From IMG/VR virus record IMGVR_UViG_3300031539_004800: DNA of 64,000 bases. The stretch is one strand, 5' to 3'. Position 1 is the first letter of the stretch. Every line of letters starts with the position of its first letter. This DNA is from a virus. This document shows positions 9,066 to 53,533 of this stretch, piece by piece. Below the pieces are notes generated by a model. It did no database searches. It was not told the origin of the DNA and saw nothing but the letters and a program-made list of their open reading frames with translations. Made by a program: the position numbers and the translations under genes.

Positions 9066-9953
9066 ATGGGAGCGTATAGAGGAAACGCAGACGTGGTCAT
9101 GGCGGACGCCGAAAGGATCGTCGAACGGCTTGAAACTACCAATGTTACCTTAATCGCACTCACGCAAGAATATCATTGCGCGTACTCTACGATTATGAGG
9201 GCTATCTATACGCGGATGTCGAAGGGGCAATACAGGCAAATCGCTGTAAGAAAATTAGTTAAGGGCAGCGAGTCAACGCAATTCAAAAAGGGACGCGAGA
9301 CGTGGAATAAGAACATGAAGGGGATGCACCTTTCGCGGGCAACCGAGTTCCACAAAGGCCACTTGCCGACAAATCATAAACACACAGGAGCAATCTCTAT
9401 CCGCAACGATAAGTGCGGCAAGCAATCCAGATGGATAAAGGTCTCAGGGGTCATACAGGGAAAGCATAAATGGATACCTTGTGCCCGATATCTTTGGGAA
9501 AAGGAAAACGGCCCCATCCCCGACGGCAAAATTGTAGCCCACACAAACGGCGACACGATGGATGATCGTCCAAAGAACCTGATATTGATTGACCGCCACG
9601 GCCTTATTAACCTGATGCGAAAGAACAATCCGGAGCACAGAAAGAAAGCAATCCGCAATCTCAAAAAGACCTGCAGGCGCCATCGGTTAGAGCGGGCAAA
9701 AAAGCAGCGCTTTCAGCTTAAACTTAAAAAGAGAAACGAAAAACAGGAGGCCGAGGACCGCAGGCACCGGGGGATTGCAGAGGCAGAGATAATCAAGCTG
9801 AGAGGTCCGGTTATTTCATGGTACGAGTGTAGGGGTTGCGGCTATGAAATGTCTCCGCCCAGGCCGCCCTGTCCGAAGTGCGGGCACCTGGTTTTCGAGG
9901 AAATAGAACAACCAGTCGAGTACGCGAGACGTTATGCAGCAATGAACGAATAA
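9066..9953 (+). CDS. HNH endonuclease with NUMOD-like N-terminal repeats
   Basis: TQFKKG, TEFHKGHLP, RYLWEKENGPIPDGKIVAHTNGDTMDDRPKNL. Confidence 0.8.
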   Translation: MGAYRGNADVVMADAERIVERLETTNVTLIALTQEYHCAYSTIMRAIYTRMSKGQYRQIAVRKLVKGSESTQFKKGRETWNKNMKGMHLSRATEFHKGHLPTNHKHTGAISIRNDKCGKQSRWIKVSGVIQGKHKWIPCARYLWEKENGPIPDGKIVAHTNGDTMDDRPKNLILIDRHGLINLMRKNNPEHRKKAIRNLKKTCRRHRLERAKKQRFQLKLKKRNEKQEAEDRRHRGIAEAEIIKLRGPVISWYECRGCGYEMSPPRPPCPKCGHLVFEEIEQPVEYARRYAAMNE

Positions 9954-9964
9954 GCAGGGAAGCT

Positions 9965-10915
9965 ATGTATATCATAACTGAATGGATTGAGCGCTACGAA
10001 GTCAATGATAAGGGGCAGCCGGCAAGGGTGGGCGACAAGCTCCGTGTCAGGCCGCTTGAGTATATCCGGTCAAAGCGGCACGGCCGGTCTCGCAGTGCCG
10101 GATTTGCTGCCATGCAGCGGCGGGCAGGTGATAGGGCGTTTGAGGTTTTTGGGCTTTTCCATAAATTCCTGGAAATTGCGGGCGACGAGGTTGGTGGTAA
10201 CAGGGGATCACTGCTTAATGCCCGAGGGAAACCGGCCACGATAAAAGATCTAGCCTTGATTCTATCTGTCCCCGAAGAAAGCATTGAATTTGCATTAAAT
10301 GTTCTTGTCGATGAAGGGGTTGGGTGGATACAAAAGGTGTCTCCCGAAAATTCCAGAAACTCCGTGAAATTCCTGGAAAATCAGGAAATTCCTGGAAAAT
10401 CAGGAAACGAAAATGAGGCAAAAGCCGTAAGCACTGATAATACAAGCACTTGTGAAAATGCCCCTGAAAACTCCGTGAAATTCCTGGAAAATCAGGAAAA
10501 AAGCGGCGGCTTATATAACGAAACGAAACGAAACGAAACCGAACAGAACGAAACAGAACGAAACGAAACACTCCCGGAATCTCAAGGCTCACAGCAAAAC
10601 TCACAGGCAGGCAATAATGGTGATGAGACGAATTTCGGAGATTTTCAATCTAATTCGTTTTCGCTTCGGTTCGTCTCGGTACTGGAGGGTATCTTAAAAA
10701 CACGCTCGAAGTCTGACAGGTCGGCAATCAGGAATCTCAACAACTGGCTCAACCTGCAGGTGCTGGCGAAAAGGTTCGATGATGGTGTGTTTAGGCGGGT
10801 GGCGGATATTGCGAATGAATCAAAAAGCGGTCGAAATCCGTTGGCCGTTTTCTTTTCAAGGATGGATGAGGAAATCGGGTACAGGGCAAGAGTATTTAAG
10901 GAGAAACAAAAATGA
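9965..10915 (+). CDS. Probable replication initiator (lambda O-like)
   Basis: N-terminal wHTH-like region, central low-complexity linker carrying iterons, position before RusA; ATG with GGA at 9965. Confidence 0.65.
   Translation: MYIITEWIERYEVNDKGQPARVGDKLRVRPLEYIRSKRHGRSRSAGFAAMQRRAGDRAFEVFGLFHKFLEIAGDEVGGNRGSLLNARGKPATIKDLALILSVPEESIEFALNVLVDEGVGWIQKVSPENSRNSVKFLENQEIPGKSGNENEAKAVSTDNTSTCENAPENSVKFLENQEKSGGLYNETKRNETEQNETERNETLPESQGSQQNSQAGNNGDETNFGDFQSNSFSLRFVSVLEGILKTRSKSDRSAIRNLNNWLNLQVLAKRFDDGVFRRVADIANESKSGRNPLAVFFSRMDEEIGYRARVFKEKQK
10370..10498. repeat. Probable origin iterons: three copies of TTCCTGGAAAATCAGGAA
   Basis: Exact copies at 10370, 10389 and 10481, each with TTCCTG/CAGGAA dyad symmetry, inside the initiator gene. 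Confidence 0.7.
10517..10569 (+). repeat. AAC-NN pentamer repeat (11 AAC triplets)
   Basis: AAC-GA x4, then AAC-CG, AG, GA, AG, GA, GA, AAC; encodes NETKRNETEQNETERNET. Confidence 0.85.
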
Positions 10916-14841: not shown

Positions 14842-15405
14842 ATGGGTTACAGAATGTTCACAAAAAGAGGTTATAGTCTTTTCGATGTTGCGTCGGCTTT
14901 GCAGAAATCAATCCGCAGGGGCGATGCTGAGCTGGCTGGTTATTTTGCTTTAGAGCTGGAGGCGAGCGGATACGTCAGATACTGCTGGAAACGACTGCTG
15001 GTAATATCGGCAGAAGATATAGCGGGCTGTGTCACGCAGGAAGTCATGGCACTTCATAAGGCGTTTATGCACGTCAACCAGGGAGCAAAAAAACTGGACA
15101 AGCCGGAGGGTAGATTGTTTTTGGCTAAGGCTGCGATCCTGTTGGCACAGGCAAAGAAGTGCAGGGACTCGGATCATCTTATAATCTTCGTTTACGACAG
15201 GAACAAAATAAATAATGCGAAGGTTGAAAAGATGATAAAGTCGCTGACGGAAGCCGAAAAAAAGGAAATACCGGGATATGCTTTTGATTGCCATACTATC
15301 AAGGGCAAGGCGATGGGTAAGACAAAAGAAGATTTTCTGAAGGAAGAGTTCGAGGCTTTGAGCCCGAGAGAGAAAGGTCTGTTCGATGGATATGTCGGAA
15401 CTTAA
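14842..15405 (+). CDS. Standalone MgsA/RarA C-terminal-domain-like protein
   Basis: DVASALQKSIRRGD...WKRLLVISAEDI...IPGYAFDCHT..GK. Confidence 0.75.
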   Translation: MGYRMFTKRGYSLFDVASALQKSIRRGDAELAGYFALELEASGYVRYCWKRLLVISAEDIAGCVTQEVMALHKAFMHVNQGAKKLDKPEGRLFLAKAAILLAQAKKCRDSDHLIIFVYDRNKINNAKVEKMIKSLTEAEKKEIPGYAFDCHTIKGKAMGKTKEDFLKEEFEALSPREKGLFDGYVGT

Positions 15406-16105
15406 AATAAAATGCTCTTACAGCAAAATTGTATTGACGGAGTCACTTGTCCCACACCCGGACAATCCTAACAAGCATAGCGAAACTCAAGTCAGTATGC
15501 TGGCAGACCTCATACGATCGGTCGGGTGGAGATATCCTATAACATCCAGCAACAGGTCGGGGTTTATCGTTTCCGGCCATGCAAGGTGGCTGGCGGCAAA
15601 ACGTCTCGGTCTTGAATCAGTGCCGGTTGATTTTCAGGATTACGACAACGAGGAAGATGAATTGCTGCAATTGTTAGGTGACAACAAAATACCAGAGCTG
15701 TCGCACATGGACAAAAACAAGGAAGCAGCGATACTGGAAAGGCTGAGAGCAAAAAATGTAAATACAATTCTGGCAGGCTACAATCCGAAAGACCTTCATG
15801 ATATATTGAATAGTGCTAATCTGCCCAAAGTGACAAAAGAGGATGAAATCCCTGAAATGGAGATATATCCTCATGAACATTACGACTATATCGTTCTTGT
15901 TTTCAAGAATGATTATGACTGGGTTAAGGCCTTGCAGAAATTCGGAATAACGGACGTGAAGTATGGCAATGTCGTTGGAAAAAAGAAGATCGGTCTTGGG
16001 AGAGTAATCGATGGAGCACGCTTTTTACAAGAATTTTTCAATGAGAAAAGTGATTCTGAGCCGGGGAAGGTGGGACACGATCACAACGCCAAATCTGATA
16101 CCTAA
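15386..16105 (+). CDS. ParB N-terminal-domain protein
   Basis: LVPHPDNPNKH...GWRYPIT...IVSGHARWLAAKRLGLESVPV...DNKIPE. Confidence 0.8.
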   Translation: MDMSELKIKCSYSKIVLTESLVPHPDNPNKHSETQVSMLADLIRSVGWRYPITSSNRSGFIVSGHARWLAAKRLGLESVPVDFQDYDNEEDELLQLLGDNKIPELSHMDKNKEAAILERLRAKNVNTILAGYNPKDLHDILNSANLPKVTKEDEIPEMEIYPHEHYDYIVLVFKNDYDWVKALQKFGITDVKYGNVVGKKKIGLGRVIDGARFLQEFFNEKSDSEPGKVGHDHNAKSDT

Positions 16106-16784
16106 CGCAACGCTTGTGGTTACAGATGAGGAAAGAGAAAAATACGACCACCTGAAAGGCTTGGTGTCTGAAATAGTTGAAATACCCGCATCGCTTCTCG
16201 GTATGCCAAAGATAAGAAACTGGATACTTGACAGGTTCGACGAGGAAGCGTTGTTCATGGCGGATGATGATCTTGAATCTGTCCACGTTATGACTCACGA
16301 GAAGGGCATGTTTATTTTCGATCCGGTCCTGGTGGAGCAGATAATTGATAATCTTTATATCTGCGCAAGAGACGCCGGGGCTAAATTGTTTGGATTCGGA
16401 ATGAATCACAAGCCGGTCGGATTCAATGAAAACAATCCATTCAGGATGGTGACGTGGATTGACCAGGGTTGGGGGATAATTGGCCGCGACCTTCGCTTCG
16501 ATGAGCATCAGTTCGTCAAAGAGGATTTGGATTTGTGCTTGTCAAGCATAATGAGGCACAGAATTATCTGGTCAGATCAGCGTTATGTATGGGTCGGGGA
16601 AAAAAGGGGCAACAAGGGCGGGCTGACTCAGTTTAGAACAGCGAGAAACGATAAAGATGACCTTGATTATTTGCAGCGTAAGTGGGGAAGGTATCTGGGC
16701 GTAAAACGCAAACAATCGGTTATTGGTCTTAGTGTTAATGTTCGCAGAAAGCAGCCTTTGATTCCGAGTTCGAGGGTTCACTGA
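16041..16784 (+). CDS. GT-A fold glycosyltransferase-like protein (GREB1/TAGT-like)
   Basis: ILSRGR, RNWILD, FMADDDL, KEDLDLCL, NKGGL..R, L..KWG motifs. Confidence 0.65.
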   Translation: MRKVILSRGRWDTITTPNLIPNATLVVTDEEREKYDHLKGLVSEIVEIPASLLGMPKIRNWILDRFDEEALFMADDDLESVHVMTHEKGMFIFDPVLVEQIIDNLYICARDAGAKLFGFGMNHKPVGFNENNPFRMVTWIDQGWGIIGRDLRFDEHQFVKEDLDLCLSSIMRHRIIWSDQRYVWVGEKRGNKGGLTQFRTARNDKDDLDYLQRKWGRYLGVKRKQSVIGLSVNVRRKQPLIPSSRVH

Positions 16785-16797
16785 AAGGACGTGACAA

Positions 16798-17187
16798 ATG
16801 AGCAGAGTACATGAAGTGATTGAATTGCTGCATGATATGAGAAAAACACACCGGATGCAGCCGCTCGGTTACGGCAGGATGATTGAAGAATCGTTTACAA
16901 AAGTCTTTGGGCTTCTTGAGACCGAAATGGAACGATCAAAGGAAAAACTCCAAGCCGAGATTTCCACGCTGAGAGAGGCATTAGAACATATTGACACTTG
17001 GGCCCAAGCCTATCCTCTTGATATTTTCCCGAAGCCTGATCTAAAGAAGGCTGCTGAGGTTTTGAAAGCTTCAGGCATGACTCTTGACGCAATCTCTGCT
17101 GATAACATGCGGCATGTTTTAGACGGTATTAAGGGTATAGTGAGTGAAGCCCTGAAAGGAGAAAAAAATCATGCAAGTGAAAGTTGA
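16798..17187 (+). CDS. Hypothetical protein
   Basis: AAAGGA RBS; AYPLDIFP motif. Confidence 0.55.
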   Translation: MSRVHEVIELLHDMRKTHRMQPLGYGRMIEESFTKVFGLLETEMERSKEKLQAEISTLREALEHIDTWAQAYPLDIFPKPDLKKAAEVLKASGMTLDAISADNMRHVLDGIKGIVSEALKGEKNHASES

Positions 17188-17533
17188 CAACGAACATGAG
17201 CTTGAGCTTATTTCGTTTTGCGGGTTCAGCTTCGGCCAGTTTATGCAGTTCGCAGAGTTCATCAGCCTTGCCAGGTTGCGAGGCAAAGGTGCGGTTGAAG
17301 AAATTGCAACAGAGCTGCGACTGTCATGTCATTGGGCAATTGACTGGAAAGGCAAAACCATATCGTTGCTGGACCTGACCTGGGAGCAGATATTTATGCT
17401 CAATTCGATTTTGGTGCTCGACGGCAACAGGAATTCTTTCATCTGGATTCACAAAGCGATCGAGAAGGCCGTCGATATGGCAATGAGTGCGAAGGGCGGC
17501 GTTAACAGGGAAGTGCTTCTTGGCAAATGCTAA
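17171..17533 (+). CDS. Hypothetical protein
   Basis: AAAGGAG RBS. Confidence 0.55.
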   Translation: MQVKVDNEHELELISFCGFSFGQFMQFAEFISLARLRGKGAVEEIATELRLSCHWAIDWKGKTISLLDLTWEQIFMLNSILVLDGNRNSFIWIHKAIEKAVDMAMSAKGGVNREVLLGKC

Positions 17534-17870
17534 TGTTAAAAAGACGTACACGGCGGAGGACGTTCTTGCTGCCCGGCTCCAGGGCAGGAAAGAGGCGGAG
17601 GATTTTTTGCAGTTACGGATCAATAATCTGTGCAAAACTCACCACCAGCTTCTGGTTGAAATATTCAGGCTCGACTTAAACGAGCCCGTCGTGGCCGTGT
17701 CCATGCCTCATAAGTTCGCTCAAATGGTCGTAGACAAGCTGAGAAAAAGAAACAAAAAGGACTGGCACGCGAGGATGATTAAATATTACATGAACAGGAG
17801 TGATCGGCAGGTTTTCGGCGACGTTGATATGAGCGATATTCTCACAAGACTTGAACGTGAAGCGATTTAA
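17487..17870 (+). CDS. Hypothetical protein
   Basis: ORF in operon order; start uncertain. Confidence 0.5.
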   Translation: MRRAALTGKCFLANANVKKTYTAEDVLAARLQGRKEAEDFLQLRINNLCKTHHQLLVEIFRLDLNEPVVAVSMPHKFAQMVVDKLRKRNKKDWHARMIKYYMNRSDRQVFGDVDMSDILTRLEREAI

Positions 17871-17893
17871 TAAATTTAAGAAAGGAATCAGTT

Positions 17894-18415
17894 ATGGAAA
17901 CAAGACGAATTACAATCGCTGAAATGCACACGGACACAAGAATTCTTTACAATGTCTTGGAAAGTAAATTTATAAAGAACAAGAAAACCGAAATCAGCTA
18001 CGAGGAATTATCGGCAAGCATCGGGCGGAATGTTCAAATGGATGCTCGCGGATTATTAAGCACGGCCCGCAAAAGAATTGAGAAGGATTTTCAGATTGTG
18101 ATTGAGGCCGTAATGAACGAAGGGCTTCGAGTGACTACTGATTACGCCGGCATTGGCGGAAAAACAAATGCTCACTTGCATCGTCACTCTCAAAAACACA
18201 GAAAGAGACTTCTCAATGCGATTGCAGGAAAGGAACTGACGCCGGAACAAACACTTCCTTTGGCCGTGGAACTCAGTAAGCTGGGAGCGACGGCCCTGTT
18301 CACAAGACGCCAAACACCAAAACAATTAACCGCGTATATCCAGGAGCATAATATACTGGAATTGCCAACTCAGCAGACACTTAAATTGTTTCAAAACGGA
18401 CATAAGACAACTTGA
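17894..18415 (+). CDS. Putative wHTH protein, candidate partner of the RAMP system
   Basis: ISYEELSASIGRNV...LLSTARKRIE resembles HTH; its stop codon is the first unit of array 1. Confidence 0.6.
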   Translation: METRRITIAEMHTDTRILYNVLESKFIKNKKTEISYEELSASIGRNVQMDARGLLSTARKRIEKDFQIVIEAVMNEGLRVTTDYAGIGGKTNAHLHRHSQKHRKRLLNAIAGKELTPEQTLPLAVELSKLGATALFTRRQTPKQLTAYIQEHNILELPTQQTLKLFQNGHKTT

Positions 18416-18501
18416 CAGGACGTGACTCGACCCGACTCGACTGGACGGGATTTGACAGGACTTGACATAACCCGACAAGACGCGACCCGACAAGACAAGA
18501 C
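18412..18501 (+). repeat. NN-GAC pentamer array 1 (18 units), candidate guide RNA
   Basis: 16 of 18 triplets are GAC; NN = TT AG GT TC CC TC TG GG TT AG TT AT CC AA GC CC AA AA. Confidence 0.9.
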
Positions 18502-18528
18502 GAGTTTAGGAGGTGAAACGAAATAAAC

Positions 18529-18613
18529 GAGACAAGACCGAACCAGACTAGACCTGAATAGACAGGATGGGACCAGACGGGACTTGACGAGACGCGACCC
18601 GACAAGACAAGAC
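18529..18613 (+). repeat. NN-GAC pentamer array 2 (17 units), candidate guide RNA
   Basis: NN = GA AA CG CA TA CT TA AG GG CA GG TT GA GC CC AA AA; T-tract follows. Confidence 0.9.
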
Positions 18614-18663
18614 AGGAATTTTTATTCAAGACAACACATTTTTATTTAAGAAAGGAAAGAATA

Positions 18664-19227
18664 ATGATTACAGTAAAAGCAAAACTCAAATCAGCAAGCC
18701 CGTATGGGCAGAGCAGGTATCATAACACGGAAAAGCTCGAAAAGGAAAGCGCGGCGGATTACGAAAAACGCACATGGAAGAACCGCTGCCATACCGATGA
18801 CAAAGGGATGGTCTTTATCCCACCGTCGGCTTTCAAGAACTGCTTATCGGAGGCGGCTAAATATCTCTCAATTCAAATACCAGGCAAAGGTAAGGCCACA
18901 TACACAAAGCATTTTGAGGCCGGAGTTATGGTCTCTGAGATAGTGCCTCTTGGAATTCACATAGACAAAATGCAACCACTATGGCTGTTTGTTCCTGCCG
19001 ACGGCAAGCGTGGCGGGTCTAAGCGAGTAGAAAAGTGCTTTCCTATCACGCAGCAATGGGAAGCCACTGTGACATTCTACGTTTTTGACGAAACTATCAC
19101 AAAAGATGTTTTTAGGTATGTACTGGAACAGGCGGGGAAATTCATCGGTATAGGATTTTCCAGACCTCGGAATAATGGATTTTTTGGCCGATTCGAAGTG
19201 GTCGAAATGTCATGGAATAAATCTTGA
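18664..19227 (+). CDS. Standalone RAMP/Cas7-like protein (Vipr-like)
   Basis: N-terminal strand plus SP, FIPPSAFKNCL (cf. RAMP IPgSslKG.lR), C-terminal Gly-rich loop GKFIGIGFSRPRNNGFFGRFEV; flanked by pentamer arrays. Confidence 0.75.
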   Translation: MITVKAKLKSASPYGQSRYHNTEKLEKESAADYEKRTWKNRCHTDDKGMVFIPPSAFKNCLSEAAKYLSIQIPGKGKATYTKHFEAGVMVSEIVPLGIHIDKMQPLWLFVPADGKRGGSKRVEKCFPITQQWEATVTFYVFDETITKDVFRYVLEQAGKFIGIGFSRPRNNGFFGRFEVVEMSWNKS

Positions 19228-19308
19228 CGGGACCCGACATGACGAGACAGGACAGGACTGGACCTGACTGGACGCGACTCGATACGACAAGACCCGACAT
19301 GACAAGAC
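19224..19308 (+). repeat. NN-GAC pentamer array 3 (17 units), candidate guide RNA
   Basis: NN = TT GG CC AT GA AG AG TG CT TG GC TC AC AA CC AT AA; followed by AAGC and T9. Confidence 0.9.
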
Positions 19309-19347
19309 AAGCTTTTTTTTATTGAGGGCGTAGAAAACGAAATAAAC

Positions 19348-19412
19348 GAGACAAGACCTGACTGGACAGGACATGATGAGATTCGATGAGACGCGACGCT
19401 ACGAGACGAGAC
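19348..19412 (+). repeat. NN-GAC/GAT pentamer array 4 (13 units), candidate guide RNA
   Basis: NN = GA AA CT TG AG AT GA TC GA GC GC GA GA; T-tract follows. Confidence 0.85.
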
Positions 19413-19900
19413 AGAATAGTTTTTTCAATTTGGGGAGTCGGTCAATCCGGCTCTCCATTTTTAGGATTCTCGATATGCACGAACTATTGGAAATGCTCGG
19501 CGGAGTTTACGGATGGTGTTGGTTTGAACATACGGGGCAATATTGGTATTGTTTGCTGTATTGGCCGGCAGAAGAAAAAAAGCCTTGCCGCTGGATTTTG
19601 TCTCGACGGCCTCTTATAATACTTGCCGGGTATATGGGTAGAAATCGGGGGCTGCATTGGGATAGAAAGAGAAGGTGAAAAATGGAAAAGATAAAAAAGT
19701 GGGGCGAATTAAAAAAATATGTAGAAAAACAAGGCATCTCGGATGATACAATAATTAACTCTATAGACATAGATACTGAATCAAATAAAGAAATGAAAAC
19801 TTGGTTCGATTCAGATGGAGAGGCAAATATTTCAAATGAGTACTATAATCGCTAAGATGGTATATTCGACAGGTCTTAATTAAGAAAGAGACGGTGAGTT

Positions 19901-20113
19901 ATGGCCGGAGAACAACAAATATTTGAGTGTGCTAATTGTGGACGAAAAATAAAAAGCGATAGAATTGAAAAAGCTTTTGGTTTTGTCCATATCGATGTTC
20001 TCTGCACAGATTGTCATATCACACTTTCTAAAGAGTCTTGGGACCAACTATGCAAAGAATTGGAGGAAAACCACGAAAACGAAGATTATGACGACAGGGT
20101 CATGGAAGGCTAA
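19901..20113 (+). CDS. Small zinc-binding protein
   Basis: CANC...CTDC. Confidence 0.5.
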   Translation: MAGEQQIFECANCGRKIKSDRIEKAFGFVHIDVLCTDCHITLSKESWDQLCKELEENHENEDYDDRVMEG

Positions 20114-20166
20114 ACGCCAGCGCCAATTAAAGTAAAATCACTTCTTTTGCCGTTATTCTGTGCTGT

Positions 20167-20370
20167 ATGGCAGAAAACGGCAACAATCCGAATATCAACA
20201 TGTTCCCGCTGGAGTCGGTGGAGAACGAAATCAACCAGGCTATATACAGGCTCCTGGAGATCGAACCGACGAATGACCAGCAGCTTGAGCTTAGGGATAT
20301 GTGCCTCGAGGACCTCAAGGAGCTGCAGGACTGCAATCTGCTGGCACTGCGGAGGGCGATTGAGGAATGA
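20167..20370 (+). CDS. Hypothetical protein
   Basis: ATGA coupling to terS. Confidence 0.55.
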   Translation: MAENGNNPNINMFPLESVENEINQAIYRLLEIEPTNDQQLELRDMCLEDLKELQDCNLLALRRAIEE

Positions 20371-20912
20371 GTGGCAGGAAGTCAAAATATCATACCCACG
20401 TCGAGCCCAGGTTTGAGTTCATTCAGGGAAAGCTGCGGAGCGGATATACGGAGGAGAGTATTGCAAAAAGTTTGGGCATTGGTGCCTCTACGTGGAAAAA
20501 ATACAAAGCTCTATTTGTAGACTTTCGAGACCTTATAAAAAAGGCGGCATTTGACAGCACGGCTTTAGTCGTAAATGCCCTGCACAAAAGGGCTACCGGC
20601 TACGAATACGACGAGATTCATACGGAGATAACGGATACCGGGGCACAAAAAAAGCAGGCAGGACAGCCTCTCGCCCAAAGAAGGGTGATAAAGAAAATTA
20701 CTAAGCATGTGCCGCCGGACACGGCGGCGGGCATATACTGGACCACAAACCGCGACCCCGCAAACTGGAAGAACACTCAGAATATCAAGCACAGCGGCGA
20801 GATAAAGAACACCGGTGTATTAGTGGTGGCGCCGCCTTTGAGCAAGGAAGAATGGTTAAAACAAAACGCAAAAAGCGAAGAGCCGGACGGGACCGAAAAG
20901 AAAAAGAAGTAA
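20367..20912 (+). CDS. terS: Terminase small subunit
   Basis: HTH N-terminus, ALHKRATGYEYDE...VPPDTAAGIYWTTNRDPANWK; precedes terL. Confidence 0.85.
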   Translation: MSGRKSKYHTHVEPRFEFIQGKLRSGYTEESIAKSLGIGASTWKKYKALFVDFRDLIKKAAFDSTALVVNALHKRATGYEYDEIHTEITDTGAQKKQAGQPLAQRRVIKKITKHVPPDTAAGIYWTTNRDPANWKNTQNIKHSGEIKNTGVLVVAPPLSKEEWLKQNAKSEEPDGTEKKKK

Positions 20913-22276
20913 ATGTTGTCTGGTCGCCGCTTCCGGGCAGCCAGCAACGCTTTCTTTCGTGCCCAATCTTCGAATGTCTGTACGAAGGGACGAGAGGTCC
21001 CGGCAAGACAGATTCGCTATTGATAGACTTTGCTCAGTTTGTGGGCAGAGGTTACGGTCCTGCCTGGCGTGGTGTTTTGTTTCGCTTGCAGTATCCGGAC
21101 CTGGAAGAAATCGAGATCAAATCCAAGCGGTTTTTTTATCAAATCTTTCCGGGGGCCGTATATAACGGGTCAAGTCACAGGTGGATATTCCAGGACGGCG
21201 AGCAGCTCCTGTTTCGCTATGCCAGGAACATAGACGACTACTGGAATTATCACGGCCACGAATACCCCTGGATCGGATGGGATGAATTGACTTTGTGGCC
21301 GAACGATGAACTTTATATTACCATGAAAACCGTCTGCAGGTCAAGCGACCCCAACGTTCCACGTCACTATCGATGCACGGCCAACCCTTACGGAGTCGGT
21401 CACAACTGGGTAAAGGGCAGGTTTATCGATCCGGCACCGAGAGGGATTGTCATACCGGACGAAGATGGCATGGAAAGGGTTACGATACACGGCACAATAT
21501 GGGAGAATTTGATTGTCCTGCAAAACGATCCGGCTTACGTGAACATGCTGAGATCCCAGACGGGGGCAAGGCGTGCCGCCTGGCTCGAAGGTGACTGGGA
21601 CATCGTCGCGGGCGGAATGTTCGACGATGTTTGGGACAGTAAGGTTCATATTGTTGCGCCCTTCGAGATACCGGCGACGTGGAAGCTTGACAGGTCTTTC
21701 GACTGGGGCAGCAGTAAGCCTTACTCGGTCGGGTTTTGGGCGGAGTCCGACGGCTGCGATGTCAAGTTGCCGGACGGATCCCTTAGAGCTACGCAGCGAG
21801 GCGATTTGTTTCGGTTTGCGGAATTGTACGGATGGACGGGAAAGCCTAACCAAGGGACCAGGGAGCTTGCGGTTGAAGTTGCACGCAAGGTCCTTAATTA
21901 TCAGAAGGAGCTCGGCAGGGCAATCAATCCCGGCCCAGCCGATTCTTCGATATACACAATAGAGAACGGTAATTGTATCGCAAGTGATATGGAAAGAATG
22001 GGTATCAGATGGACACGGGCAAACAAGTCGCCCGGTAGCCGTATCAATGGCTGGGAGATTCTCAGGGAGCGTTTGAAAAACTCCATCAGCAGGGAAGGTC
22101 CGGGGATTTACGCACTCGATACGTGCCGGCAGTTCATACGCACATTCCCTGTTCTTCCGAGAGACAAACACAAGGCCGATGATGTCGATACTGAGGCCGA
22201 GGACCATATTGCAGATGATGTCAGATATAGATGTTTGGCAAAAACTTACAGCCTTAGCGTTAGACAAGCGAGTTGA
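20852..22276 (+). CDS. terL: Terminase large subunit
   Basis: EGTRGPGKT Walker A, WIGWDELT Walker B, CTANP, RSFDWG nuclease, DHIADDVRY. Confidence 0.95.
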   Translation: MVKTKRKKRRAGRDRKEKEVNVVWSPLPGSQQRFLSCPIFECLYEGTRGPGKTDSLLIDFAQFVGRGYGPAWRGVLFRLQYPDLEEIEIKSKRFFYQIFPGAVYNGSSHRWIFQDGEQLLFRYARNIDDYWNYHGHEYPWIGWDELTLWPNDELYITMKTVCRSSDPNVPRHYRCTANPYGVGHNWVKGRFIDPAPRGIVIPDEDGMERVTIHGTIWENLIVLQNDPAYVNMLRSQTGARRAAWLEGDWDIVAGGMFDDVWDSKVHIVAPFEIPATWKLDRSFDWGSSKPYSVGFWAESDGCDVKLPDGSLRATQRGDLFRFAELYGWTGKPNQGTRELAVEVARKVLNYQKELGRAINPGPADSSIYTIENGNCIASDMERMGIRWTRANKSPGSRINGWEILRERLKNSISREGPGIYALDTCRQFIRTFPVLPRDKHKADDVDTEAEDHIADDVRYRCLAKTYSLSVRQAS

Positions 22277-53423: not shown

Positions 53424-53425
53424 TT

Positions 53426-53500
53426 TCCCTGATAGCTTAACGGATAGAGCGCTCTGTTTAGAAGCAGAGAGGATGGCGGGTTCGACTCCCGTTCGGGGCA
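53426..53500 (+). tRNA. tRNA or pseudo-tRNA with Arg-like body and abnormal 8-nt anticodon loop (TTTAGAAG)
   Basis: Full cloverleaf: GCTT-AACGGATA-GAGC D arm, CTCTG/CAGAG anticodon stem, GCGGG-TTCGACT-CCCGT T arm; 1:72 mismatch; no CCA. Confidence 0.65.
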
Positions 53501-53533
53501 TTGAGCAATTGTGCTCATTGAAAGGGTAGCAAG

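What the first reader, a model, noticed from the sequence alone, without database searches (positions are those of the whole stretch)
18412..19412. Four different NN codes that can be decoded into predicted targets
Seen: the central NN strings differ between arrays. A1: TT AG GT TC CC TC TG GG TT AG TT AT CC. A2: CG CA TA CT TA AG GG CA GG TT GA. A3: GG CC AT GA AG AG TG CT TG GC TC AC. A4: CT TG AG AT GA TC GA GC GC. Each carries roughly 18-26 informative bases, similar to a CRISPR spacer. Inference: each array addresses a separate target. A one-base skip (NNxNNx) would also tolerate codon wobble changes. I did not find a target by eye, and my search was not exhaustive.
Basis: partly seen in the sequence, partly recalled or inferred. 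Interest (0 to 1): 0.8.

Follow-up and report, generated by a model that had tools for sequence, protein, structure and literature searches.

The report
Phage VIPR guide-RNA arrays, GAC type
The four repeat arrays are the guide-RNA genes of a VIPR system, a CRISPR-like phage weapon first described in 2026 preprints, so their variable two-letter codes very probably name DNA targets, but I found no credible target in the databases I could reach.

Summary
Four same-strand arrays of GAC/NN pentamers flank a 187-aa gene, and the four NN strings are exactly as listed. The gene encodes a Vipr protein: its family profile hits the PDB chain "SUSP1 Vipr protein" (E 1.2e-12), and its fold matches Cas7/Csm3. 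Relatives of the upstream 173-aa gene sit next to vipr in nine other loci, so it is a candidate vap accessory gene.

The locus is therefore a VIPR system (bioRxiv 10.64898/2026.04.26.720920). In the characterised systems, the NN of each unit pair with dsDNA and every third target base is skipped. The GAC/NN unit is already reported as a non-canonical VIPR unit (10.64898/2026.10.21.760802).

The best local support is that three relatives have vipr genes with 0 differences in 564 nt yet carry different NN strings on an unchanged scaffold.

Decoding did not yield a target. The window held nothing above shuffled controls at skips 0-3. Exact skip-1 scans of the viral, metagenome and genome collections gave nothing for arrays 1-3. 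Array 4 gave one 18-base hit that is probably chance.

This scan has noted VIPR loci about 98 times on other DNA. Verdict: a new member of a known kind, with the mechanism supported by homology and the targets unresolved.

The parts
17894..18415 (+). Candidate vap accessory gene (173 aa). Its TGA stop overlaps the first GAC of array 1.
   Evidence: It has no Pfam or PHROG hit. tblastn finds relatives next to vipr and its arrays in L026, L031, L034, L032, L017, L002, L013, L014 and L003, either upstream or downstream of vipr. The AF2 model (pLDDT 85.5) has an N-terminal helix-strand-helix-helix-hairpin layout like a winged helix. Foldseek matches to MarR, GntR and ORC winged helices are only weak, with E about 0.06.
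18414..18505 (+). vrRNA array 1: 18 GAC/NN units, of which 12-13 are variable, followed by conserved 3' units (AA GC CC AA AA GA).
18506..18530 (+). Linker and 5' leader of array 2. It ends in ATAAACGA, a motif also found before array 4 and before the downstream arrays of L026-L028 (with a C for the last A in a few copies).
18531..18625 (+). vrRNA array 2: 17 units, including degenerate AAC, GAA and GAT triplets, followed by a T-rich tail.
18664..19227 (+). vipr gene (187 aa), a minimal RAMP/Cas7-like protein with G-loop G-I-G-F-S-R-P-R-N-N-G-F-F-G-R. Its TGA stop overlaps the first GAC of array 3.
   Evidence: A profile of 84 homologues hits PDB 36pp_D 'SUSP1 Vipr protein' at E 1.2e-12 over residues 21-183. 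The AF2 model has pLDDT 97.6. The top Foldseek hits are type VII Cas7, Csm3 and Cmr4, with probability 1.0 and TM about 0.55. The family has 1184 clusters at 50% identity.
19226..19322 (+). vrRNA array 3: 17 units followed by a T8 tail.
19334..19349 (+). 5' leader of array 4 (AACGAAATAAACGA), identical to the leader of array 2.
19350..19414 (+). vrRNA array 4: 13 units, made up of 9 GAC, 3 GAT and 1 TAC.
19431..19467 (+). Intrinsic terminator-like hairpin (11 pairs) followed by a T run. It probably ends the locus transcript.

Best explanation
Window 17894-19467 is a VIPR (Viral Interference Programmable Repeat) locus of a soil siphovirus, laid out as vap candidate, two vrRNA genes, vipr, two vrRNA genes, terminator. 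By homology with the characterised SUSP1 and P. fulva systems, each array is transcribed into an RNA of about 90-110 nt. One Vipr protomer binds per pentamer and the protomers form a helical filament. Each constant triplet (here G-A-Y instead of G-G-Y) is buried between two protomers, and the two variable bases are presented for Watson-Crick pairing with double-stranded DNA in which every third base is skipped. The result is silencing of transcription of a competing phage, satellite or prophage. The four different NN strings are therefore four different addresses. Shown here: the arrays and their register, the homology and fold of the protein, the conserved accessory gene, and the rapid turnover of NN on a fixed scaffold. 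Inferred from the literature: transcription and processing of the arrays, filament assembly, the one-base skip, and silencing. Unknown: the targets.
For: (1) The protein is a Vipr. The family profile hits the solved SUSP1 Vipr at E 1.2e-12, and the invariant Gly and Arg residues of the G-loop align. The high-confidence model matches Cas7-family RAMPs. (2) Pentamer arrays on the gene's strand flank vipr homologues in most of the related loci fetched. (3) L026, L027 and L028 have vipr genes with 0 differences in 564 nt, yet they differ in the number of arrays and in NN content. In the first downstream array of L026 and L027 the scaffold is identical at 47 of 49 positions, against 14 of 32 NN positions. 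Neutral drift cannot produce that, but guide replacement can. (4) A conserved accessory gene is present. (5) The arrays fold no better than shuffled sequence (z between +0.5 and -1.4), as expected for RNA held extended by protein. (6) No self-target reaches 80% NN match in the window, which agrees with what the preprint reports for natural systems. (7) The NN composition of 29 GAY-type guides (405 units) fits codon positions 1-2 better than positions 2-3 (delta log-likelihood 9.7, bootstrap p 0.02), positions 3-1 (41.6) or a uniform model (17.3). (8) GAC/NN units next to Vipr-like folds are reported independently in 10.64898/2026.10.21.760802.
Against: No natural target was found. Full-length exact skip-1 patterns gave nothing for array 1 (viral and metagenome), array 2 (viral and genome) or array 3 (viral, genome and metagenome). 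The one hit, for the 18-base core of array 4, does not extend into the flanks (2 of 8 flanking NN bases match). Its skipped bases fall on codon position 1 of a portal gene in an unrelated phage. Twenty-four guides from GAC-type loci showed no excess at any skip length against 203 kb of related DNA. The codon 1-2 fit is only marginally better than plain genome dinucleotide frequencies (delta log-likelihood 5.9, p 0.09). No RNA data exist for this phage, so transcription, RNA ends and strand are inferred. Residues that contact G1 and G2 in SUSP1 Vipr (D177, W178, R138) are F165, S166 and F126 here, so the details of scaffold reading differ and the skip rule is untested for this clade.
Confidence: 0.85

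Rival explanations
1. The locus is a VIPR system, but GAC-type units are read by a different code than the published one-base skip, for instance another skip length or an RNA target. In that case the NNx decoding used here and by the first reader would be wrong for this clade.
For: The G-loop and thumb residues that hold G1 and G2 in SUSP1 Vipr are replaced here. No skip-1 target was found for six guides in any collection.
Against: Skips of 0, 2 and 3 also gave nothing above shuffles locally. The NN composition fits codon positions 1-2 best, which only makes sense for a three-base target period. In the published structure the skip is set by the thumb-bundle pocket, not by the scaffold-binding residues. 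The exact-match scans had low power, so their silence says little.
Confidence: 0.1
2. The arrays are only protein-binding scaffolds, comparable to the 11 (G/U)AG repeats that wrap around the TRAP ring. They would serve autoregulation or RNA packaging, and the NN would be meaningless spacers.
For: The repeats have a five-base period, a fixed triplet and a free two-base spacer. They lie on the mRNA-sense strand immediately around the binder's own gene, and they are unstructured. No target was found.
Against: Neutral spacers would not be replaced wholesale while 564 nt of adjacent coding sequence stay identical. The protein is a RAMP homologous to an experimentally shown guide-presenting protein, not a TRAP-like ring. 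Array number and length vary from 9 to 30 units, which does not fit a closed ring.
Confidence: 0.04
3. The arrays act as double-stranded DNA sites, such as iterons, a centromere or a pac site for the nearby ParB-like or small terminase proteins.
For: They lie about 950 bp upstream of terS, in a phage that also encodes a ParB-N protein. Short iterated sites flanking a gene are known from plasmid partition loci (own knowledge).
Against: Across relatives the arrays travel with vipr, not with terS or the ParB-like gene, and occur in quite different gene neighbourhoods. A five-base period puts successive sites on opposite faces of B-DNA. The orientation relative to vipr is always the same, and in the GAC-type loci a 3' T-rich tail follows on that strand.
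Confidence: 0.01

Closest known systems
Type II VIPR of Escherichia phage SUSP1 and the Pseudomonas fulva prophage (bioRxiv 10.64898/2026.04.26.720920, .720927 and 10.64898/2026.10.15.759431; PDB 36pp)
   Same: It has a minimal RAMP protein of about 190 aa with a G-loop and thumb. A small predicted DNA-binding accessory gene lies beside it. Several arrays of 9-18 pentamer units lie both upstream and downstream of the genes on the same strand. The triplet is constant, the NN are hypervariable, and each array ends in a conserved 3' part. The system is phage-borne and does not target its own genome.
   Different: The constant triplet is G-A-Y rather than G-G-Y. The SUSP1 residues D177, W178 and R138 that read G1 and G2 correspond to F165, S166 and F126 here. 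The 3' end is a few conserved AA-type units plus a T run, with no predicted pseudoknot. The proteins are related only at profile level (E 1e-12). Expression, code and targets have not been tested for this clade.
Non-canonical VIPR-like clusters with GAC/NN or CAC/NN units (bioRxiv 10.64898/2026.10.21.760802, section 2.3 and Fig. S10)
   Same: The unit is the same (GAC/NN), repeated about ten or more times next to a Vipr-like fold. I also saw CAC/NN (L037) and AGY/NN (L004, L018) next to members of this protein family.
   Different: That work is a computational catalogue without a mechanism. This particular phage locus, its vap candidate and its guide strings are not described there as far as the text I could read shows. 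I could not see the figures or tables.
Cas7 backbone of class 1 CRISPR effectors (type VII Cas7, Csm3, Cmr4)
   Same: It has the same RRM, G-loop and thumb fold (Foldseek probability 1.0, TM about 0.55). It presumably has the same principle of a protein filament that presents guide bases in short segments interrupted by thumb insertions.
   Different: There are no CRISPR repeat-spacer array and no other cas genes. The period is 5 nt with 2 paired bases, rather than 6 nt with 5 paired. The interrupting bases are sequence-specific. Guides are hard-wired tandem units, not acquired spacers.
TRAP (trp RNA-binding attenuation protein) and its 11 (G/U)AG-NN repeats
   Same: The RNA has a five-base rhythm of a fixed triplet and a two-base spacer that is read by an oligomeric protein.
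   Different: The protein fold is unrelated (a beta-sandwich ring rather than a RAMP). In TRAP the spacers carry no information and the ring has a fixed number of sites.

Membership tests
VIPR system | Vipr protein: a single-RRM RAMP with glycine-rich loop and thumb, homologous to described Vipr proteins | tested here: met
   The profile of 84 homologues hits PDB 36pp_D 'SUSP1 Vipr protein' at E 1.2e-12, residues 21-183 of 187. The AF2 model has pLDDT 97.6. The best folds are Cas7, Csm3 and Cmr4 at probability 1.0. Invariant residues are G162, R167 and G175 in the G-loop, plus W132.
VIPR system | Tandem 5-nt units with a constant trinucleotide and two variable bases, at least 4 units, in intergenic DNA flanking vipr | tested here: met
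   There are four arrays of 13-18 units. Entropy is 0.2-0.6 bits at positions 1-3 and about 1.96 bits at positions 4-5.
VIPR system | Canonical constant motif GGY | tested here: not met
   The motif is GAC or GAT (A at position 2 in 65 of 67 units). The founding preprint allows 'a related consensus', and a later preprint lists GAC/NN as a non-canonical VIPR unit. So this marks a variant, not an exclusion.
VIPR system | NN hypervariable between closely related loci while the scaffold and tail stay fixed | tested here: met
   L026, L027 and L028 have identical vipr genes (0 differences in 564 nt) but different guide sets. Scaffold identity is 47 of 49, against 14 of 32 for NN.
VIPR system | Conserved 3' tail after the repeat tract | tested here: inconclusive
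   The arrays end in conserved AA-type units plus a T run, both here and in L026-L028, L031 and L034. No stable fold or pseudoknot is predicted. Without RNA data the ends are unknown.
VIPR system | Adjacent vap accessory gene predicted to interact with DNA | tested here: met
   Homologues of the 173-aa ORF lie beside vipr in nine other loci. The model has a winged-helix-like N-terminal domain, though matches to known DNA binders are weak. I could not test identity with any of the published vap1-6 families.
VIPR system | Arrays expressed as RNAs of about 100 nt that co-purify with Vipr | not testable with these tools
   All seven sequencing runs listed as holding this DNA are DNA metagenomes (six soil, one sediment). 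None is on record as RNA.
VIPR system | Guides match natural dsDNA targets under the one-base-skip rule, at 80% NN match or better and above shuffled guides | tested here: inconclusive
   Nothing in the window exceeded shuffles at skips 0-3. Exact scans of the collections gave nothing for arrays 1-3, and one unconvincing 18-base hit for array 4 against 0 for a shuffled control. The tools allowed no mismatch-tolerant search of large collections.
VIPR system | Carried by a virus or provirus | tested here: met
   The locus sits between a DNA-modification cassette and terS, terL and the portal gene. terL is 53% identical to those of M6/PaMx74-like siphoviruses.
CRISPR-Cas class 1 | CRISPR repeat-spacer array and further cas genes next to the Cas7-like gene | tested here: not met
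   Between 12 and 26 kb the only direct-repeat families are the pentamer arrays and one 2-copy 24-nt pair. The tandem-repeat scan of the whole window shows no CRISPR-like array. None of the ten neighbouring ORFs scanned has a Cas family hit.

The most novel reading that the evidence does not exclude
The constant triplet is itself a lineage-specific lock, set by the two G-loop residues that precede the invariant Arg (window F165-S166). In 30 or so loci of this one protein family, Arg-Phe or Arg-Trp at these positions goes with GGC, GTC, GTT or AGY units. Phe-Ser, Phe-Phe, Val-Phe, Ala-Phe, Thr-Phe and Ser-Leu go with GAC/GAY, and Gln-Asn goes with CAC. If this is causal, scaffold switching creates orthogonal Vipr-vrRNA pairs. 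A phage whose Vipr reads GAY would then be immune to hijacking by the decoy or solo GGY vrRNAs of satellites and rival phages that the October 2026 preprint describes.
Probability: 0.3. Interest if true: 0.55.

Novelty: new member of a known kind. Interest (0 to 1): 0.3.

Why it matters
VIPR is a very recent addition to the RNA-guided systems, and only GGY-type type II systems have been characterised at the bench. This locus is a clean, compact example of the GAC-type branch: a vap candidate, vipr, four guides and a terminator in 1.6 kb. The branch is abundant, with at least 1184 protein clusters at 50% identity in the family. Relatives show guide replacement at zero protein divergence. That makes it a convenient test case for three questions: whether the one-base-skip code holds beyond GGY, which residues set scaffold specificity, and whether different scaffolds are orthogonal. 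The last would matter both for phage-versus-phage conflict and for multiplexed use of the system as a tool.

Tried and rejected
(1) Rfam at E up to 1 on 17000-21000 found no family.
(2) tblastn of Vipr against 50,697 deposited phage genomes found no match.
(3) My first idea was a TRAP-like ring binder or a pac/centromere site. I dropped it once the PDB profile hit and the VIPR papers turned up.
(4) The whole host genome is not held, so neither a host nor a prophage search was possible.
(5) Host identification failed. Cluster names gave no organism, and the terL relatives infect many proteobacterial genera at only 53% identity.
(6) No RNA holder is listed among the public runs, so expression could not be examined.
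(7) Target searches:
- Window, skips 0-3, 200 shuffles each: best matches were 67-78% at skip 1 (64-78% over skips 0-3), none above the null.
- 24 guides from GAC-type loci against 203 kb of related loci: nothing.
- Exact skip-1 patterns in viral, metagenome and genome collections: nothing for arrays 1-3.
- Array 4, 18-base core: one hit at L030:1287-1312, inside the portal gene of an unrelated phage. The skipped bases fall on codon position 1, and only 2 of 8 flanking NN bases match. A shuffled control pattern gave 0 hits. I judged the hit probably chance.
- Two complete guides of L027: nothing.
- Array 1 with up to 3 mismatches in five whole IMG/VR records: nothing.
- Degenerate-peptide reading of the guides against six-frame translations of the window and loci: nothing above shuffles except the same L030 site, and there not in the real reading frame.
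(8) The supplementary tables of the founding preprint are not held, so I could not assign the VIPR type (I-VII) or the vap family.
(9) RNA folding of the four arrays showed no structure beyond shuffles except the terminator after array 4.

Full report
WHAT IS THERE. Reading window 17800-20200 and scanning every phase for phased trinucleotides shows four arrays of five-base units with a fixed GAC. All are on the + strand, at 18414-18501, 18531-18613, 19226-19308 and 19350-19412. No comparable run exists elsewhere in the 64 kb, and there is no GTC run, which is what a minus-strand GAC array would look like. Positions 1-3 of the 67 units carry 0.2-0.6 bits of entropy and positions 4-5 about 1.96 bits, and all 16 dinucleotides are used. 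The arrays bracket a 187-aa ORF (18664-19227) whose TGA stop overlaps the first GAC of array 3. A 173-aa ORF (17894-18415) ends in the same way on array 1. Arrays 2 and 4 share a leader ending in ATAAACGA. Arrays 1-3 end in similar AA-type units, which in arrays 2 and 3 are followed by a T run. An intrinsic terminator-like hairpin follows array 4. The neighbourhood is phage: an MgsA-C-like gene, a ParB-N gene and a TET-associated glycosyltransferase upstream, and terS, terL and the portal gene downstream. terL is 53% identical to those of M6/PaMx74-like siphoviruses.

WHAT IT IS. The 187-aa protein has no Pfam hit and only a PHROG family of unknown function, but it belongs to a very large family. 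I found 2539 hits in the 90% clusters and 1184 clusters at 50% identity. A profile of 84 members hits one solved structure, PDB 36pp 'SUSP1 Vipr protein', at E 1.2e-12 over nearly the whole length. The AlphaFold model (pLDDT 97.6) matches the Cas7 backbone subunits of type VII and type III CRISPR effectors at probability 1.0.

That name led to three 2026 preprints on VIPR systems. A minimal RAMP, Vipr, polymerises along a vrRNA made of 9-16 GGY/NN pentamers plus a 3' tail. The GGY is buried between two protomers and the NN pair with double-stranded DNA in which every third base is skipped. Either strand can be targeted, no PAM is needed, and the outcome is transcriptional silencing of rival phages, satellites or prophages. 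A small vap gene usually accompanies vipr. A fourth preprint (10.64898/2026.10.21.760802) explicitly lists GAC/NN and CAC/NN as non-canonical VIPR units found next to Vipr-like folds.

LOCAL EVIDENCE BEYOND HOMOLOGY. Pentamer arrays on the gene's strand flank vipr homologues in most of the 21 IMG/VR loci and in the additional contigs I fetched. The constant triplet depends on lineage: GGC, GAC, GTC, GTT, CAC or AGY.

The most telling comparison involves three contigs (L026, L027, L028) that encode a Vipr 88% identical to this one. Their vipr genes show 0 differences in 564 nt. Yet they carry different numbers of arrays with different NN strings, while the GAC scaffold, the ATAAACGA-type leader and the (GACAA)3-T-run tail are kept. 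In the first downstream array of L026 and L027 the scaffold matches at 47 of 49 positions, against 14 of 32 NN positions. Some arrays share a prefix of 12 units and then diverge, which looks like recombination within arrays.

The 173-aa ORF has homologues adjacent to vipr in nine other loci, sometimes upstream and sometimes between downstream arrays. Its model has a winged-helix-like N-terminal domain. This fits the description of vap genes as predicted DNA binders, although I could not match it to a named vap family. The arrays fold no better than shuffled sequence, as expected for RNA that is held extended by protein.

THE DECODING. I applied the published rule (NN, one wildcard, NN, and so on, both strands) and also skips of 0, 2 and 3 bases.
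- In the window, the best matches at skip 1 are 67-78% of NN bases and none exceeds 200 order-shuffled controls. This agrees with the preprint's report that natural systems do not target their own contig.
- Twenty-four guides from GAC-type loci gave no excess at any skip against 203 kb of related DNA.
- The large collections can only be scanned for exact patterns. Full-length patterns gave nothing for array 1 (viral, metagenome), array 2 (viral, genome) or array 3 (viral, genome, metagenome).
- Two complete guides of L027 also gave nothing.
- The 18-base core of array 4 gave one hit, in the portal gene of an unrelated IMG/VR phage. The flanking units do not match (2 of 8 bases), the skipped bases fall on codon position 1 rather than on the wobble base, and the phage shares no recognisable portal homology with this one. 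A shuffled control pattern gave 0 hits. I treat the hit as probably chance.

The published searches accept 80% matches, whereas mine required 100%, so the negative result is weak.

One indirect signal supports coding-sequence targets. The NN composition of 29 GAY-type guides (405 units) fits strand-symmetrised codon positions 1-2 better than positions 2-3 (delta log-likelihood 9.7, bootstrap p 0.02), positions 3-1 (41.6) or a uniform model (17.3). It is only marginally better than plain dinucleotide frequencies (5.9, p 0.09).

HOW THIS COPY DIFFERS. The constant triplet is G-A-Y. In the SUSP1 structure, G1 is read by H17 and D177, G2 by R138 and W178, and Y3 by a pocket that includes R179. In the profile alignment, R179 corresponds to the invariant R167 here. 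D177 and W178 correspond to F165 and S166, and R138 corresponds to F126. Across the loci I could examine, the dipeptide at 165-166 tracks the scaffold:
- R-F or R-W goes with GGC, GTC, GTT or AGY. L002 (R-F) carries a mixed GAC/GGC array.
- F-S, F-F, V-F, A-F, T-F and S-L go with GAC/GAY.
- Q-N goes with CAC.

The sample is small and phylogenetically confounded, so this is a lead, not a result. If it is causal, scaffold switching would make Vipr-vrRNA pairs orthogonal. That could be a defence against the hijacking by foreign vrRNAs described in 10.64898/2026.10.15.759431.

VERDICT. It is not fulfilled as to actual targets. The kind is known, the GAC unit is in print, and this scan has already noted VIPR loci about 98 times in at least 89 other genomes. 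I therefore class it as a new member of a known kind, of modest interest. The scaffold-specificity correlation is the only part that might be new.

Noticed in passing
window 14842-16784: Three overlapping genes sit together: a protein with only the C-terminal domain of MgsA/RarA, a ParB-N protein, and a TET-associated glycosyltransferase (TAGT). This looks like a DNA base hypermodification cassette. One relative with the identical VIPR locus (L022) has a D12-class methyltransferase and two other ORFs here instead.
   Followed up: partly
window 53425-53501: ARAGORN calls a tRNA of undetermined identity with a four-base anticodon (taga), meaning an enlarged anticodon loop. It is the only tRNA call in the window.
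   Followed up: no
window 10517-10570: There is a second five-base-period repeat (AACGA, about 10.6 copies). It lies inside a 345-aa ORF (9878-10915), where it would encode a five-residue low-complexity repeat. Just upstream is a 19-nt repeat present about 3.2 times (10348-10407). It is probably coding and not a vrRNA, but I did not test this.
   Followed up: partly
L037:1386-1485, 2070-2164 and 2686-2755: A Vipr homologue with Gln-Asn in the G-loop is flanked by three arrays of CAC/NN units (18, 18 and 11 exact CAC units, in runs of 20, 19 and 14). Here even the first scaffold base is not G.
   Followed up: partly
L007:3620-4140 and L016:3800-3880: In the GTC-type relative L007 every array is followed by the same tail of roughly 80 nt with two strong hairpins. 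L016 carries a related two-hairpin tail after one array. This is quite unlike the short T-rich tail of the GAC-type loci. It could be a processing or capping structure.
   Followed up: no
L026:1219-1303 versus L028:1066-1175, and L026:1464 versus L028:1209: Arrays in contigs with identical vipr genes share their first 12 (or first 3) units and then diverge. This suggests guides are rebuilt by recombination inside the repeat tract.
   Followed up: partly
L002:3553-3662: A single array mixes GAC and GGC units freely next to a Vipr with the Arg-Phe G-loop. Some family members therefore seem to accept either purine at scaffold position 2.
   Followed up: no
L026:521-565 and the equivalent linkers in L026-L028: Most linkers between arrays contain TGATATAAA about 7 nt before the first unit, and the rest read TAATATAAA. 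The former resembles an extended -10 promoter element, so each vrRNA may have its own promoter in that lineage. The window's linkers (CGAAATAAAC) are a poorer match.
   Followed up: no
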